Shown piece after piece: positions 22,132 to 27,645 of a stretch of 64,000 nucleotides of DNA. The notes below the pieces were generated by a model, which ran no database searches, was not told the DNA's origin, and saw only the letters and a program-made list of their open reading frames with translations. Position numbers and translations under genes: made by a program. Source of the stretch: an uncultured Bacillales bacterium (GTDB lineage: Bacteria; Bacillota_I; Bacilli_A; RFN20; CAG-449); the NCBI GenBank assembly GCA_946641515.1, contig CAMPBT010000003.1, forward strand, positions 140,120 through 204,119, in the 5' to 3' direction. Numbering within the stretch: position 1 is the first letter of the stretch; each line of letters starts with the position of its first letter.

Positions 22132-22168
22132 AAAAAAGTTGCGCTGATAAGGAAACGGTCAGGCAACT
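22132..22168 (-). terminator. Riboswitch expression-platform terminator
   Basis: AGTTGC-CTGA...TCAG-C-GCAACT followed by TTTTTATTT. Confidence 0.6.
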
Positions 22169-22180
22169 GAAAGGAAAACT

Positions 22181-22241
22181 TTCGTAGAGGTAGATTGTGG
22201 TCTACCGTAGAGACATTGGACCGATTTCCAATATATACGAA
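22181..22241 (-). ncRNA. Purine riboswitch aptamer, guanine-type discriminator
   Basis: UUCGUA-UAU-AUUGGA-AAUCGG-UCCAAU-GUCUCUAC-GGUAGA-CCACAA-UCUACC-UC-UACGAA: P1/P2/P3 pair perfectly, J2/3 is close to the consensus GUUUCUAC, the L2 GG/L3 CC kissing bases are kept, and position 74 is C. Confidence 0.85.
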
Positions 22242-22391
22242 TATAACTTATGAGCTATCCTACTTGCATAGGACAGTGATTAATATATTACATATCTAAA
22301 AAGAAAAAAGAAACACTTTTTTGAAAATTTTTGAATTTTCTTTCAAATGTTTCTTTTTGTATCAATTATTTAATTAATTTAAATACTTATT

Positions 22392-24113: not shown

Positions 24114-24707
24114 TTATCTTAGTTTATTTACTAAAGGTATAATTGTTTCTTCTTTTTGTTCTTCCGTTAAAACATGCTTCGCGCCTTCAATTAAAGTAAC
24201 ATGATCTTCCCCAAACTTTTCTAAAACAATATCTTTTGTAGTAGTACAAATTTCATCCTTAGTTCCTACAATAATATAAGTATTCTTTAAAGTCATAGGA
24301 TGAATATTACTTAATGCATCTTTAGCAAATCTAGAAACAGATTCGACAAAATAATCATCAATTGAGAAATCTTTTTCTTTAGGGTTTTGTCTAGGTGAAG
24401 AAAACTTATGTCTACCTAAAGCGACAGTTTTGCCAAATACAGAAGAAGGATCAACACATGGGTTAACTAAGATTCTTCTAACTGATTTATTGTTTAAACA
24501 TAATGCATATAATCCTCCAAGAGAATTACCTACAACTAAATCAATACCATAATTATCCACAATATAGTTGATGATATAGATAGCTTCAGAACAATTAACA
24601 GGAACATCAAAAGTGATGACTTCATCATTTTCTAAGTTCTTTTTGAGAACTTTATAGACACCATTTTCTCCTGCAGAAGCAAATCCATGGATATTAAGAA
24701 TTTTCAT
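24114..24707 (-). CDS. YqiA/YcfP-like alpha/beta hydrolase (start likely ATG 24707)
   Basis: ILNIHGFAS, nucleophile elbow GNSLGG, LVNP, GTKDE, C-terminal His. Confidence 0.85.
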   Translation of the reverse strand: MKILNIHGFASAGENGVYKVLKKNLENDEVITFDVPVNCSEAIYIINYIVDNYGIDLVVGNSLGGLYALCLNNKSVRRILVNPCVDPSSVFGKTVALGRHKFSSPRQNPKEKDFSIDDYFVESVSRFAKDALSNIHPMTLKNTYIIVGTKDEICTTTKDIVLEKFGEDHVTLIEGAKHVLTEEQKEETIIPLVNKLR

Positions 24708-25212
24708 TTTTTTCTCCTCTACTTTTTCTTTTTTTAGGTACATCAGGTACCTGATAAATATATTCATCCTTTAAGATTTTAGAAAATCCTAATGAAGTAA
24801 ACATCTTCTTAGATTGAGTATTAAAAGGATAAATTTCCGCATATAAGATTTTCATTTCTTTTTTCTGTGCGAGTTTAATTATACCTTGAATTACTCTTCT
24901 TCCAATATGTTTATTTTGATATTCATTACAAATAGTTATAGAAATATGACCATCTTTAAAAAGAGTAACATCACCTACTAATAGATTCTGATATCTAATG
25001 TAATATAACCAACCTTCATGTTTTAAAGCAGAATACATAGTTTTAACTCTCTTTAAAGAAAAAGGTTCTTTAGAATTACTAACTTGCTTAACAAGTTGTA
25101 GGTCCTGATACCACGACAAAGTAACCTTATAATTAGGCTTATAAGGAACTAAAGTTATCTCATCATCAATTTTAATATTTCTAAAAGTAAGCATATCTAT
25201 TTCATTATACAC
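24694..25212 (-). CDS. GNAT family N-acetyltransferase (start uncertain)
   Basis: LVGDVTL...ISITICNEYQNKHIGRRVI, NTQSKKMFTSLGF. Confidence 0.85.
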   Translation of the reverse strand: MYNEIDMLTFRNIKIDDEITLVPYKPNYKVTLSWYQDLQLVKQVSNSKEPFSLKRVKTMYSALKHEGWLYYIRYQNLLVGDVTLFKDGHISITICNEYQNKHIGRRVIQGIIKLAQKKEMKILYAEIYPFNTQSKKMFTSLGFSKILKDEYIYQVPDVPKKRKSRGEKNENS

Positions 25213-25340
25213 AATTTTAAAATATATGAAATATCCTCCTGTTCAATAATTGTAAACACTTTCATAATTTTTTGTATTAATTCTTATTCAATTTAAAATG
25301 AAGATTTAGTATATTTTATACACAATGATAGGAGGGGATC

Positions 25341-25892
25341 ATGGAAAAAGTTATTCTTTGTGAAGAAGAAATTAAAAGCATCACTAGTCTAATTGGCCAG
25401 CAGCTTTCAACTCGCTTCAGATTCAATGACTCTCCACCAATTATCATTGGCCTTATCGAAGATTCACTTCCATTTACAACAGATTTAGTAAATGAAATGA
25501 ATATTCCCTTATTACAAGATTACATCCAGATCGGTTCTATCAACGGTAGTAAGCATTTAGGAACTATGCTAAAGAAAGACGTTTCATTAGACATCTACAA
25601 GAAAGATGTAGTTATCGTCGCTACAGTCGTTGATACAGGTATTCAGATGCAATATTTATCAGATTACCTCATGAACAAATATAAGCCTACATCAATTACA
25701 ACAGTAGCGTTAATTGATAAAAAGGCTAACCGCAAAGTTCCTTTTAATCTAGATTATTACGGCAAAGAAATAAATACCGACTCTTTCTTAGTAGGCTATG
25801 GACTAGATTACCGTGGCTTTGGTCGTAATAGTAAAATCGTGTACATCCCAACTTCAGCCGAAATAAAGTCATGGGATTCTTACACTAATTAA
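25341..25892 (+). CDS. Hypoxanthine phosphoribosyltransferase homologue with degenerate PRPP-binding motifs
   Basis: EKVILCEEEI, LIDK...RK and FLVGYGLDY align to HPRT; ED is replaced by AT, LKG by IED, SY by SI. Confidence 0.8.
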   Translation: MEKVILCEEEIKSITSLIGQQLSTRFRFNDSPPIIIGLIEDSLPFTTDLVNEMNIPLLQDYIQIGSINGSKHLGTMLKKDVSLDIYKKDVVIVATVVDTGIQMQYLSDYLMNKYKPTSITTVALIDKKANRKVPFNLDYYGKEINTDSFLVGYGLDYRGFGRNSKIVYIPTSAEIKSWDSYTN

Positions 25893-26052
25893 ACATTGCT
25901 TGTTATTTCTCCCTAACTATTATTCATTTCAATCAATGTTTAATCCAAATTAAATGTCTTATTAAGATAAGACTTAGAATACGAGATTTGTTAATAGCAA
26001 ATCTCTTTTTTTATAAAAAAACCAGTTATTTCTAACTGGCTTAATATACTAA

Positions 26053-27255
26053 TTAAAGAACAACTTTCTTAAAGTTCTTTTTACCTTTTTTAACTAAGAT
26101 ACCCTTCTTTAAAGCTGCTTCATCATATCTAACTTTTGAATCAGTAACTTTGACATCATCAACACTGACACCACCTTGTTCTACAGCACGTCTAGCGTCA
26201 CCTCTAGAAGAAGCAAAACCACATTTAACTAAAACTGAACAAATGTCGATAGAACCATTAAGTAAATCACTAGCTTCTAAATTTAATGTTGGAGCGTTTT
26301 CACCATTTCCTGCAGCAAATAAAGATTTAGCCATTTCTTCAGCTTCTTTATATGCATCTTCTCCATGTATGAAAGTAATAACTTCTTTTGCTAAAGCCTT
26401 ATGAGCTTCTCTAAGTTCTGGATGTTCCTTATTCTTTCTTTCTAATTCTTCAATTTCTTCTTTTGATAAGAATGTTAAGAATTTTAAGTAGTCGATAACT
26501 TTGCTATCTTCACAGTTAACAAAGAACTGGTACATTTCAAATGGAGAAGTTTTATTCTTGTCTAACCAAATAGCTTTGCCATTTGTTTTACCAAATTTAG
26601 TACCATCTGATTTAGTAAGAAGTGGCATAGTAAACCCATATACAGTTTTACCTGTTTTCTTTCTAATTAAGTCGATACCTGCAGTAATATTACCCCACTG
26701 GTCTTGACCTGCAACTTCTAAAGTAACACCTTTAGTTTCCATTAAGTATTCAAAGTCATAAGCTTGTAATGTCATGTAAGAGAATTCTGTGAAAGTAATA
26801 CCTTCTTCAAGTCTTCTTCTAACAATATCTTTACCAAGCATAGAACCAATGTTGAAATATTTTCCAACATCTCTTAAGTAATCAATAATATTAATCTTCT
26901 TTAACCAATCACCATTGTTAACAACTTCAAAACCGAATAACTTTTCAGCTTGAGCTTTTAAGCAAGCGAAGTTATGTTCAACTTGTTCATAAGTAATCAT
27001 TGGTCTTTCTGCATCAGGTTTTGGATCACCAATTAAACCAGTTCCTCCACCTACTAAAAGGATTGGATTGTGGCCAGCATCCTTTAATCTTTTAGCAATT
27101 AAGAATGATGAAAAGTGACCGATGTGAAGTGAATCACCAGTTGGGTCAGTTCCAATGTAGAAAGTTAAACCTCCAGCATTTAATTTATCCTTGATAGCAG
27201 GATCTGAGACGTCTTTAATAAGACCTCTCCATTCTAATTCTTCATAAATTCCCAT
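26053..27255 (-). CDS. tyrS: Tyrosine--tRNA ligase
   Basis: DPTGDSLHIGH, GQDQWGN, KFGKT and a C-terminal S4 domain. Confidence 0.98.
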   Translation of the reverse strand: MGIYEELEWRGLIKDVSDPAIKDKLNAGGLTFYIGTDPTGDSLHIGHFSSFLIAKRLKDAGHNPILLVGGGTGLIGDPKPDAERPMITYEQVEHNFACLKAQAEKLFGFEVVNNGDWLKKINIIDYLRDVGKYFNIGSMLGKDIVRRRLEEGITFTEFSYMTLQAYDFEYLMETKGVTLEVAGQDQWGNITAGIDLIRKKTGKTVYGFTMPLLTKSDGTKFGKTNGKAIWLDKNKTSPFEMYQFFVNCEDSKVIDYLKFLTFLSKEEIEELERKNKEHPELREAHKALAKEVITFIHGEDAYKEAEEMAKSLFAAGNGENAPTLNLEASDLLNGSIDICSVLVKCGFASSRGDARRAVEQGGVSVDDVKVTDSKVRYDEAALKKGILVKKGKKNFKKVVL

Positions 27256-27277: not shown

Positions 27278-27505
27278 AAATAAAAAACGCCCTTAATATA
27301 AGGACGAAATATTCGTGGTACCACCTTATTTTATGAAAGTAATAATACTTTCACCTCATTAGATATTTTTACGCGTATCAAGCGTCTTCCCTACTATTAA
27401 TTCAAGAAGCTCTCCAGAACGTATTCATTTATTTACCACACTGTTTTTCATCAACCAACAGCTTTCTAAAGAGAATAAATAAACTACTCTTTTCCTTCAA
27501 CGATT
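27278..27505 (-). promoter_or_regulatory. T-box riboswitch with Tyr specifier
   Basis: T-box AAGGTGGTACCACG (27314-27327), specifier GAA-TAC-GTT (TAC at 27421-27423), AG box/GCTG...TGA stem I, terminator ending in a T run. Confidence 0.92.
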
Positions 27506-27645
27506 TATAAATTTTACAAGGTCATTATATATGGATAAGGATATTAAAACAAGTAACAAAACAAACTATTTTTATTTTTAGTTAGCAACTGCTAACCATT
27601 TTATTTAAATTATGTTATTATAATTTGGTTGAAAGGAGCATCTAT

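What the first reader, a model, noticed from the sequence alone, without database searches (positions are those of the whole stretch)
25341..25892. HPRT homologue that keeps purine-binding residues but has lost the PRPP/Mg2+ machinery
Against B. subtilis HprT, the PRPP-loop IIEDIIDSGLT becomes IVATVVDTGIQ (GCT ACA at 25620-25625), VLKG becomes LIED and the SY loop becomes SI. The DK (6-oxopurine contact) and VGYGLDY segments are intact and the ORF is full length with a good RBS. This looks like a pseudo-enzyme. PyrR and PurR are PRTase-fold regulators, so a purine or (p)ppGpp-sensing role is plausible, and it lies within about 3 kb of the riboswitch and uraA attenuator (inference).
Basis: partly seen in the sequence, partly recalled or inferred. 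Interest (0 to 1): 0.62.

Follow-up and report, generated by a model that had tools for sequence, protein, structure and literature searches.

The report
Catalytically dead HPRT kept by selection
This gut bacterium has kept its genus's usual purine-salvage enzyme gene (hpt) intact and under selection even though the residues needed for the chemistry are gone and a second, normal hpt does that job, so it is probably a bacterial "pseudo-enzyme" with an unknown non-catalytic role.

Summary
ORF 25341-25892 (183 aa) has a confident HPRT fold (pLDDT 93.5; TM 0.88 to S. aureus and B. anthracis HPRT). It carries K40E, G41D (loop I), Y67I (loop II), E94A, D95T and S/T102Q (PRPP loop). The purine pocket is intact (D98, K127, F149, V151, D156, R162). 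It scores 112 bits on TIGR01203, below the 150-bit cut-off.

It is the positional orthologue, next to tyrS, of the hpt found across the genus. That hpt is intact (157-168 bits) and the only hpt in 12 of 15 species genomes. Only three genomes also carry a second hpt ("hpt2", 163 bits here, 45 kb away). In exactly those three the tyrS-linked copy has altered active-site residues.

The degenerate state is shared by two 77%-identical metagenomic lineages. dN/dS among them is 0.13-0.21, similar to intact orthologues, so this is not neutral decay.

Most likely it no longer catalyses phosphoribosyl transfer and was retained after hpt2 took over catalysis. A (p)ppGpp-sensing role is unlikely, because the Glu/Asp side chains that contact (p)ppGpp are lost. 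Its actual role is inferred, not shown. I class it as a new variant of a known kind.

The parts
25341..25892 (+). hpt1*: 183-aa HPRT-fold protein, the positional orthologue of the genus's hpt, with a disabled PRPP/Mg2+/PPi site
   Evidence: ORF. PF00156 54.8 bits. TIGR01203 112.3 bits, below the 150 cut-off. AlphaFold2 pLDDT 93.5. Foldseek TM 0.88 to 4rqb, 1r3u and 3h83. Convergent hpt/tyrS synteny in five same-genus genomes, and on the same contig 4.4 kb apart in a sixth.
25458..25463 (+). Loop I codons E40-D41, replacing the family's Lys-Gly (PPi-binding turn)
   Evidence: In 150 representatives position 41 is Gly in 145 and position 40 is never acidic. P0002 and P0003 have D-E here.
25539..25541 (+). 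Loop II codon I67, replacing the flexible-loop Tyr
   Evidence: Tyr in 141 of 150 representatives.
25620..25625 (+). Codons A94-T95 (GCT ACA), replacing the Glu-Asp dyad of the PRPP motif
   Evidence: No representative lacks both acids. P0002 and P0003 have G-N here.
25632..25646 (+). Retained 5'-phosphate loop D98-T99-G100-I101, followed by Q102, which is specific to this clade (the family has Thr or Ser)
25716..25721 (+). Retained D126-K127 (the Lys that contacts the 6-oxo group of the purine)
   Evidence: The role of the equivalent Lys131 is described in PMC6783271.
25251..25264 (.). TGTAAACACTTTCA, a cre/LacI-family-operator-like 14-mer about 90 nt upstream of the ATG
   Evidence: The same motif (TGTAAGCATTTTCA or TGTAAACGTTTTCA) sits upstream of hpt1 in nearly all same-genus genomes. 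Only 5 exact matches (4 distinct sites) occur in the 1.53-Mb genome.
25305..25337 (+). Conserved promoter-proximal block TTTAGTATATTTTA (-10-like) and ribosome-binding site AGGAGGGG
   Evidence: The block is identical in the window and in the P0002 and P0003 loci. Sequence.
25983..26013 (+). Intrinsic terminator-like hairpin plus T-run, which makes the gene monocistronic

Best explanation
This gene, which I call hpt1*, is the orthologue of the hypoxanthine-guanine phosphoribosyltransferase that most species of this genus of uncultured gut Bacilli use as their only HPRT. In the lineage of this genome a second canonical-type hpt (hpt2, 45 kb downstream and outside the window) coexists with it and supplies HPRT activity. 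Freed from that duty, hpt1* lost what it needs to bind Mg-PRPP/PPi and stabilise the transition state. The losses are the loop III Glu-Asp, the loop I Lys-Gly (now two acidic residues) and the loop II Tyr. It kept the fold, the 6-oxopurine pocket (D98, K127, F149, V151, D156), the backbone 5'-phosphate loop, its promoter and upstream operator-like site, and purifying selection.

It therefore most likely acts without catalysis. It probably binds a 6-oxopurine base or nucleoside monophosphate and carries out a second, non-enzymatic job that the ancestral enzyme may already have had. That job could be a trigger-enzyme or partner role, comparable to B. subtilis HprT acting with TilS on ftsH. It could also be modulation of hpt2.

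Shown here: the loss of catalytic residues, the orthology, the coexistence with hpt2, purifying selection, and a preserved fold as predicted by AlphaFold2. Inferred: absence of activity, ligand identity, and the nature of the non-catalytic output.
For: (1) Residue losses are verified and lie outside family variation. TIGR01203 gives 112-114 bits for this clade, 157-168 for intact hpt1 and 163-170 for hpt2.
(2) Orthology: the convergent hpt/tyrS arrangement is shared with G006, G001, G013, G010 and G012, and G007 has both genes on one contig 4.4 kb apart. UPF0227-GNAT-hpt1*-tyrS-ZIP synteny holds in the P0002 and P0003 loci.
(3) Of 15 species genomes in the genus, hpt2 is present only in G000, G014 and G007. 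Exactly these three have an altered hpt1, and 12 of 12 single-copy genomes keep every motif. Fisher p = 0.002, not corrected for phylogeny. The P0003 genome also carries hpt2, 81% identical to that of G000.
(4) Selection: dN/dS is 0.13-0.17 by NG86 and 0.04-0.21 by YN00 and ML. For the unsaturated pair P0003-P0002 there are 26 nonsynonymous and 35 synonymous differences (p = 1.4e-9 against neutrality). Intact orthologue pairs give 0.01-0.20.
(5) The tree shows a long stem (0.56 substitutions per site) followed by short tips, which indicates a burst of change and then constraint.
(6) Of 65 positions conserved in intact hpt1, 55 are retained. Seven of the ten changed positions lie in active-site loops.
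(7) The AlphaFold2 model is confident and HPRT-like.
(8) The upstream operator-like motif and -10 block are conserved.
(9) A 380-nt metatranscriptome contig covers 25534-25913.
(10) There is precedent for a non-catalytic HprT role: the TilS-HprT complex activates ftsH transcription (PMC8152036).
Against: No assay has been done, so inactivity rests on residue roles known from other HPRTs. D156 and R162 normally contact Mg2+ and PPi, and they are retained; this could mean some phosphate binding persists. The enrichment of changes in active-site loops is only suggestive (odds ratio 4.4, p = 0.075). Only three lineages, plus one 99%-identical variant, carry this exact state, so selection is measured on few branches and dS is near saturation for two of the three pairs. 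Nothing in the neighbourhood points to a particular partner or target. tilS-ftsH in this genome has no hpt beside it. The metatranscriptome contig could reflect DNA carry-over.
Confidence: 0.55

Rival explanations
1. It is still an enzyme, with a remodelled active site. One version is that the acidic pair has moved from loop III (E94, D95) to loop I (E40-D41, or D-E in the sister lineage) and still positions Mg2+ for phosphoribosyl transfer. The other version is that the protein now catalyses a different reaction on purine bases or nucleotides.
For: Loss of the loop III dyad coincides with the gain of two adjacent acidic residues in loop I in both sub-lineages (ED and DE). The general-base Asp98, D156 and R162, the purine pocket and the phosphate loop are all kept. 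Purifying selection fits an enzyme as well as a binder.
Against: Gly41 is nearly invariant (145 of 150), and no family member has an acid at positions 40 or 41. By established HPRT structural knowledge this Gly belongs to the tight PPi-binding turn. Loop II Tyr and the Thr/Ser102 phosphate ligand are also lost. Acidic side chains next to the pyrophosphate site should repel PRPP. There is no precedent in type I PRTases.
Confidence: 0.15
2. It is a dispensable gene in slow decay: redundant since hpt2 arrived, and not yet interrupted.
For: Same-genus orthologues are catalytically intact and a replacement enzyme is present. The stem branch is long. Other odd family members exist, such as P0179.
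Against: dN/dS is 0.13-0.21 within the degenerate clade and is rejected as neutral (p about 1e-9). The ORF is full length in all lineages, which are separated by dS of 0.4 to more than 1. 55 of 65 conserved positions are kept. The promoter, operator and RBS are conserved. The rate is similar to that of the active hpt2 (77% against 81% identity over the same genome pair).
Confidence: 0.1
3. It is a non-catalytic regulatory subunit that forms mixed oligomers with hpt2 and tunes purine salvage, as the PRPS-associated proteins and HisZ do for their enzymes.
For: HPRTs work as dimers and tetramers whose interfaces control activity (PMC6783271). hpt1* and hpt2 always co-occur. Both carry a similar operator-like motif about 90-97 nt upstream of the start codon.
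Against: hpt1* and hpt2 are only 25% identical and belong to different HPRT clades. Hetero-oligomers of such distant paralogues would need a newly evolved interface. The genes are not adjacent (45 kb apart here, 10 kb in the sister lineage). No direct evidence exists.
Confidence: 0.1
4. It is a (p)ppGpp sensor or sink.
For: Firmicute HPRTs bind (p)ppGpp tightly in the active site (PMC6783271). The genome encodes a long Rel/RSH enzyme. The guanine pocket is retained.
Against: The Glu99 and Asp100 side chains, the loop I geometry and the Mg2+ site that hold ppGpp are exactly what has been lost, and mutating the contacting side chains greatly weakens binding. The new acidic loop I should repel the 3'-diphosphate.
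Confidence: 0.05

Closest known systems
Bacterial hypoxanthine(-guanine) phosphoribosyltransferase Hpt/HprT (EC 2.4.2.8; TIGR01203; PDB 4rqa, 3h83/6d9r, 1r3u)
   Same: Same length and fold (TM 0.88), collinear over the whole protein. It shares the purine-binding Lys, the Phe/Val platform, the GYGLDY motif, the catalytic-base Asp and the DTG phosphate loop. It descends directly from the genus's own hpt, as synteny with tyrS shows.
   Different: It lacks the Glu-Asp dyad, the loop I Lys-Gly, the loop II Tyr and the Thr/Ser phosphate ligand. It falls 38 bits below the equivalog cut-off. It coexists with a separate hpt that passes the cut-off.
PRTFDC1, the vertebrate HPRT paralogue (PDB 2jbh)
   Same: A duplicate or paralogue of HPRT that kept the fold and is conserved alongside an active HPRT. 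It is a genetic modifier of HPRT deficiency in the mouse (PMC3144895, title seen). It is retrieved as a homologue (E = 7.5e-10).
   Different: From my own recall of the published PRTFDC1 structural study, which I did not check here, PRTFDC1 lost the catalytic-base Asp but keeps the Glu-Asp dyad and has residual activity. The present protein shows the opposite pattern. It arose independently and is bacterial.
Trypanosoma brucei APRT2, the kinetically inactive isoform of a purine PRTase pair (PMC8836349)
   Same: Two purine PRTase paralogues in one organism, of which only one is kinetically active.
   Different: A different PRTase subfamily (adenine), a eukaryote, a glycosomal isoform, and different residues involved.
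PRTase-fold regulators PyrR and PurR of Bacillus
   Same: Type I PRTase fold used for sensing nucleotides or PRPP rather than mainly for catalysis. They show that the fold can take on a regulatory role.
   Different: PurR has an added N-terminal winged-helix DNA-binding domain. From my own knowledge, not checked here, both keep the PRPP-motif acids. The query has no extra domain, matches PyrR models only weakly (34 bits against 218) and is acidic (pI 5.5). The genome has no PurR above cut-off.
B. subtilis HprT moonlighting with TilS as activator of ftsH (Lin et al. 2014, cited in PMC8152036)
   Same: A documented non-catalytic function of a bacterial HPRT. This is the kind of second function that could keep a catalytically dead copy under selection.
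   Different: That HprT is fully active and encoded within tilS-hprT-ftsH. Here tilS is followed directly by ftsH with no hpt between them, and no interaction has been tested.

Membership tests
HGPRTase (NCBIfam TIGR01203, EC 2.4.2.8) | Whole-protein score at or above the curated equivalog cut-off (150 bits) | tested here: not met
   112.3 bits. Sister sequences P0002 and P0003 score 112.6 and 114.1. Intact orthologues score 157-167.5 and hpt2 scores 162.8-170.2.
HGPRTase (NCBIfam TIGR01203, EC 2.4.2.8) | Type I PRTase fold, HPRT subfamily topology | tested here: met
   PF00156 54.8 bits. AlphaFold2 pLDDT 93.5. All top Foldseek hits are HPRTs, TM 0.81-0.91.
HGPRTase (NCBIfam TIGR01203, EC 2.4.2.8) | Two adjacent acidic residues in the PRPP-binding motif (ribose-hydroxyl and Mg2+ ligands) | tested here: not met
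   A94-T95. No representative of 150 lacks both acids; 3 full-length ones lack one.
HGPRTase (NCBIfam TIGR01203, EC 2.4.2.8) | Loop I (K/N/T/R)-Gly turn that binds pyrophosphate | tested here: not met
   E40-D41. Gly in 145 of 150 representatives, and acidic residues are never seen at either position.
HGPRTase (NCBIfam TIGR01203, EC 2.4.2.8) | Flexible loop II Ser-Tyr | tested here: not met
   S66-I67. Tyr in 141 of 150 representatives. There is also a one-residue deletion in the loop.
HGPRTase (NCBIfam TIGR01203, EC 2.4.2.8) | 6-oxopurine pocket: Lys (K127), aromatic platform (F149), Val151, Asp156, and catalytic-base Asp98 | tested here: met
   All are present and conserved in the three degenerate lineages.
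HGPRTase (NCBIfam TIGR01203, EC 2.4.2.8) | PRPP-dependent conversion of hypoxanthine or guanine to IMP or GMP | not testable with these tools
   Needs an enzyme assay or complementation.
PyrR (PRTase-fold RNA-binding attenuation protein) | Score above the PyrR equivalog cut-offs | tested here: not met
   Best PyrR model scores 34.5 bits against a 218 cut-off, over residues 77-147 only.
PurR (Bacillus-type purine repressor, TIGR01743) | N-terminal winged-helix DNA-binding domain fused to the PRTase domain | tested here: not met
   The protein is 183 aa and collinear with HPRT from residue 2. TIGR01743 finds no protein above cut-off in the genome and does not hit this ORF.
Pseudoenzyme (operational definition: homologue of an enzyme lacking key catalytic residues but maintained by selection) | Key catalytic or cofactor-binding residues are missing | tested here: met
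Pseudoenzyme (operational definition: homologue of an enzyme lacking key catalytic residues but maintained by selection) | Maintained by purifying selection after the loss | tested here: met
   dN/dS 0.13-0.21 among lineages that share the loss, p = 1.4e-9 against neutrality.
Pseudoenzyme (operational definition: homologue of an enzyme lacking key catalytic residues but maintained by selection) | Demonstrated lack of the ancestral activity | not testable with these tools
   Needs biochemistry.

The most novel reading that the evidence does not exclude
hpt1* may be an enzyme caught partway into becoming a regulator. On this reading it is a free-standing HPRT-derived sensor of 6-oxopurines or their nucleotides that controls another protein or a nucleic acid (for example hpt2, TilS, or a promoter) in a lineage with no PurR. 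The same HPRT subfamily would then have set out on this path more than once: this clade, the Asp-Lys to Ser-Arg clade of G014 and G007, and the isolated P0179. That would mean the ancestral enzyme already had a second, selectable function. Together these lineages would give a natural series for studying how PyrR- or PurR-like regulators arise from PRTases.
Probability: 0.25. Interest if true: 0.72.

Novelty: new variant of a known kind. Interest (0 to 1): 0.5.

Why it matters
Pseudoenzymes are well documented in eukaryotes, but dated and clearly polarised examples in bacteria are scarce. I found no described bacterial pseudo-HPRT in the searchable literature. In this case the ancestral state (intact, sole hpt), the trigger (coexistence with a second hpt) and the outcome (catalytic residues lost, purifying selection kept) can all be read from genomes of one genus. 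That makes it a tractable system for asking what non-catalytic function a purine-salvage enzyme can carry.

There is also a practical point for annotation. Database entries for relatives of this protein are named "hypoxanthine phosphoribosyltransferase". For metabolic reconstruction of these uncultured gut Bacilli, this clade should not be counted as an HPRT activity.

Tried and rejected
It returned only distant canonical HPRTs (41% identity or less), so it added no context beyond a taxonomic hint (Bacillales UBA4855, Candidatus Enteromonas).

(2) I looked for a PyrR-like gain of positive charge. None was found: pI 5.46 against 4.8-5.4 for intact orthologues.

(3) I tested whether changes at conserved positions are enriched in active-site loops. 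The result was 7 of 26 against 3 of 39, p = 0.075, which is suggestive only.

(4) I tried to define the regulon of the upstream 14-mer. There are only 4 distinct exact sites in the genome, and the others precede two unannotated ORFs of about 68 aa. The regulator remains unidentified, and I did not pursue whether it is CcpA.

(5) The context of another degenerate family member, P0179, is only a 724-bp contig.

(6) I tested the TilS-partner idea by synteny. tilS is followed directly by ftsH with no hpt, so synteny neither supports nor excludes it.

(7) I could not test the relocated acidic dyad geometrically, because model coordinates are not exposed to scripts.

(8) Riboswitch control of this gene is rejected. 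The purine riboswitch is on the other strand, 3.1 kb away and beyond three genes.

Full report
**1. Observation**

The ORF at 25341-25892 (+) encodes 183 aa. It has an AGGAGGGG ribosome-binding site at 25330-25337 and a terminator-like hairpin at 25983-26005. It is an HPRT homologue: PF00156 scores 54.8 bits, and the best solved-structure matches are all HPRTs (S. aureus 4rqa E = 3.8e-23, plus T. thermophilus, T. tengcongensis and B. anthracis). It scores only 112.3 bits on the HGPRTase equivalog model TIGR01203, whose cut-off is 150.

- L38-I39-E40-D41 where HPRTs have (V/L)-(L/M)-K-G.
- S66-I67 for S-Y.
- V93-A94-T95-V96-V97-D98-T99-G100-I101-Q102 for V-E-D-I-(I/V)-D-(S/T)-G-x-(T/S), with GCT ACA at 25620-25625.
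- D126-K127 and F149-LVGYGLDY-157 are intact.

To judge whether this is ordinary family variation, I aligned the 150 best representatives from a search of 1.84 billion 50%-identity clusters.
- None lacks both acids. Three full-length ones lack one, and a fourth exception is an 82-aa fragment that does not cover the loop.
- Position 41 is Gly in 145 and never acidic.
- Position 40 is K, N, T or R and never acidic.
- Position 67 is Tyr in 141.
- Position 102 is Thr or Ser in 146 and never Gln.

**2. What the gene is: the genus's own hpt**

A protein search found a tight group:
- P0001, 99% identical.
- P0002 and P0003, 77% identical.
- P0004-P0009, 47-59% identical.

Below these there is a gap to canonical HPRTs at 35% or less.

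P0004-P0009 carry all the canonical motifs (VMKGA, SSY, IVEDIVDSGIS, DKK). P0002 and P0003 share the degenerate state but with different replacement residues (TMDEA, GSID, IVGNVVDTGIQ).

Searching 40 related genomes showed that this subfamily, which I call hpt1, is the HPRT of the genus and of most of its family. It has a characteristic QLSTRYRF segment and a C-terminal FIPxxEEIxSW tail.

In G006, G001, G013, G010 and G012 it lies convergent with tyrS, exactly as in the window (tyrS 26053-27255, with its T-box at 27297-27509). In G007 the two genes are on the same contig, 4.4 kb apart. The P0002 and P0003 loci share the order UPF0227-GNAT-hpt1*-(RimK-like)-tyrS-ZIP with the window. The query is therefore the positional orthologue of an intact enzyme. 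It is not an old paralogue.

**3. A second hpt, and the correlation with it**

The genome holds a second HPRT gene, hpt2, at G000:C3:211164-211709. That is 45 kb downstream of the query and just outside the window. It scores 162.8 bits, above the cut-off.

The genus has 15 species genomes. hpt2 is found only in G000, in G014, and as a contig-edge fragment in G007. The metagenomic genome carrying P0003 also has hpt2, 10 kb from hpt1* and 81% identical to that of G000.

hpt2 sits next to the same FAD-dependent protein gene in G000, P0003 and G014. In G014 it forms purA-upp-hpt2. In the tree it groups with the HPRTs of other families of the order, not with hpt1.

All 12 genomes with a single hpt keep every catalytic motif. 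The three with hpt2 all have an altered hpt1. Fisher p is 0.002 without correction for phylogeny.

The G014/G007 form, which I call degB, differs from the query. It keeps Glu-Asp and Tyr but has Lys to Asn in loop I and Asp-Lys to Ser-Arg at the 6-oxopurine site. It scores 150-152 bits. Asn at loop I and Ser-Arg at that site occur in other HPRT representatives. degB may therefore be a shift in specificity rather than a dead enzyme.

Both altered clades share a one-residue insertion (D147) and have long stem branches (0.56 and 0.58 substitutions per site, against 0.1 or less for neighbouring internal branches). An AU test does not reject their forming one clade (p = 0.54, and the constrained tree is 2.2 lnL units better). 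The simplest history is one ancestor with both genes, followed by divergent remodelling of hpt1. Long-branch attraction cannot be excluded.

**4. Decay or function**

Three lines of evidence argue against decay.

*Selection.* Among the three lineages that share the loss, dN/dS is:
- 0.133-0.168 by NG86.
- 0.13-0.21 by YN00.
- 0.04-0.16 by ML.

For the one unsaturated pair (P0003-P0002, dS about 0.35) there are about 26 nonsynonymous and 35 synonymous differences. That is p = 1.4e-9 against neutrality.

For comparison, over comparable or the same genome pairs:
- Intact hpt1 pairs give 0.01-0.20.
- degB gives 0.11.
- hpt2 gives 0.07.
- tyrS gives 0.04-0.11.
- The neighbouring GNAT gene gives 0.16-0.30.

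*Conservation.* Of 65 positions that are at least 85% conserved in 22 intact hpt1 sequences, 55 are unchanged. Seven of the ten that changed in all three degenerate sequences lie in active-site loops (odds ratio 4.4, p = 0.075, suggestive only). AlphaFold2 gives a confident HPRT fold (pLDDT 93.5; TM 0.88).

*Expression signals.* The -10-like block TTTAGTATATTTTA is identical in the three lineages. A 14-mer, TGTAAACACTTTCA (25251-25264), resembles a cre/LacI-family operator. The same motif is conserved upstream of hpt1 in nearly all genomes of the genus. A one-mismatch copy lies at the same distance upstream of hpt2.

A 380-nt contig from a gut metatranscriptome covers 25534-25913 with one synonymous difference. 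Other RNA runs cover the neighbouring genes. This is weak support for transcription, because DNA carry-over is possible.

**5. Mechanism**

The residue roles below come from established HPRT structural work.
- The Glu-Asp dyad holds the PRPP ribose hydroxyls and the Mg2+ water shell.
- The loop I turn binds pyrophosphate through its backbone.
- The loop II Tyr closes over the transition state.

All three elements are gone, and loop I now carries two carboxylates that should repel pyrophosphate. PRPP-dependent catalysis is therefore very unlikely. This is an inference, not an assay.

The residues that read a 6-oxopurine are kept (D98, K127, F149, V151, D156), as are the backbone 5'-phosphate loop and R162. 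The protein could therefore still bind hypoxanthine, guanine or IMP/GMP.

The (p)ppGpp idea fares poorly. In the Hpt-1-ppGpp complex, the ligand's ribose and 5'-phosphates are held by the Glu99 and Asp100 side chains. Its 3'-phosphates are held by loop I amides, Arg165 and Mg2+. Mutating the contacting side chains greatly weakens binding (PMC6783271). The organism can make (p)ppGpp, since a 738-aa Rel is present.

The genome has xpt, a likely apt next to rel, and no Bacillus-type PurR.

I conclude that hpt1* is a non-catalytic derivative, retained for a role that does not need phosphoribosyl transfer. The best precedent is B. subtilis HprT, which acts with TilS as an activator of ftsH (PMC8152036). 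Here, however, tilS is followed directly by ftsH with no hpt, and no partner can be named. Modulation of hpt2 through mixed oligomers is possible, but the 25% identity between the two argues against it.

**6. Comparison and novelty**

It resembles known PRTase pseudo- or low-activity paralogues: vertebrate PRTFDC1 (PDB 2jbh, retrieved; PMC3144895) and T. brucei APRT2 (PMC8836349). More loosely it resembles the PRTase-fold regulators PyrR and PurR.

It is not a member of the functional HGPRTase equivalog, since the cut-off and three defining motifs are not met. It is not a PyrR or PurR either.

Literature searches found no described bacterial pseudo-HPRT. Earlier unverified notes of this scan report degenerate HPRT-like proteins in two other genomes, so the phenomenon may be recurrent.

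I class it as a new variant of a known kind. Its main value is the clear evolutionary polarity: an intact sole enzyme, then redundancy, then a catalytically dead copy that is still under selection.

Noticed in passing
window 25251-25264; also L006-L019 upstream regions and G000 C3 about 94 nt upstream of hpt2: A cre/LacI-operator-like 14-mer (TGWAARCRYTTTCA) is conserved 70-100 nt upstream of hpt1 in nearly all genus genomes. A one-mismatch copy lies at the same distance upstream of hpt2. Only 4 distinct exact sites exist in the 1.53-Mb genome, and two of them precede unannotated ORFs of about 68 aa (C1:50444, C18:134). The regulator is unknown.
   Followed up: partly
L014, L017, L121 (G014, G007); P0060-P0064: A second altered hpt1 clade coexists with hpt2. 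It keeps Glu-Asp and Tyr but has loop I Lys to Asn and Asp-Lys to Ser-Arg at the 6-oxopurine site. The state is stable across five sequences of 85-99% identity, with dN/dS 0.11. It may be a change of base specificity rather than a loss of activity.
   Followed up: partly
G000 C3:211164-211709 (L001:1477-2025), outside the window; L131:19980-20531: The presumably active hpt2 has Val (G000, P0003 genome) or Asn (G014) in place of the loop I Lys, and a one-residue insertion after the DK-equivalent EKK. It still passes TIGR01203 (163-170 bits). In G014 it is the last gene of a purA-upp-hpt2 cluster.
   Followed up: partly
P0179 / L158 (724-bp metagenome contig): Another hpt1-subfamily member, 44% identical, has a different set of losses: Glu to Val in the dyad, loop I Gly to Ser, GYGLD to GYGLS, and Arg-Asn to Leu-Pro. 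No genomic context is available. It may be an independent degeneration.
   Followed up: partly
L131:10652-11524 and L134:2212-3084: A RimK/ATP-grasp gene sits between hpt1* and tyrS in the two sister lineages but is absent from the window, where hpt1* and tyrS are separated only by two facing terminators (25983-26042).
   Followed up: no
window 22165-22260 (-): A purine riboswitch (RF00167, 46.5 bits) lies between the uracil/xanthine-family permease gene and an M32 carboxypeptidase gene, with no purine gene downstream. An earlier report of this scan already covers it. It may be a relic of purine-gene rearrangement in this lineage.
   Followed up: no
G000 C6:53308-56653: tilS is followed directly by ftsH, without the hprT gene that sits between them in Bacillus. 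In this genus hpt has moved next to tyrS.
   Followed up: partly
window 24694-24767: The UPF0227 alpha/beta-hydrolase ORF (24114-24767) and the GNAT ORF (24694-25212) overlap by 74 nt as listed. The sister loci call a 14-nt overlap, so the true UPF0227 start is probably an internal ATG.
   Followed up: no
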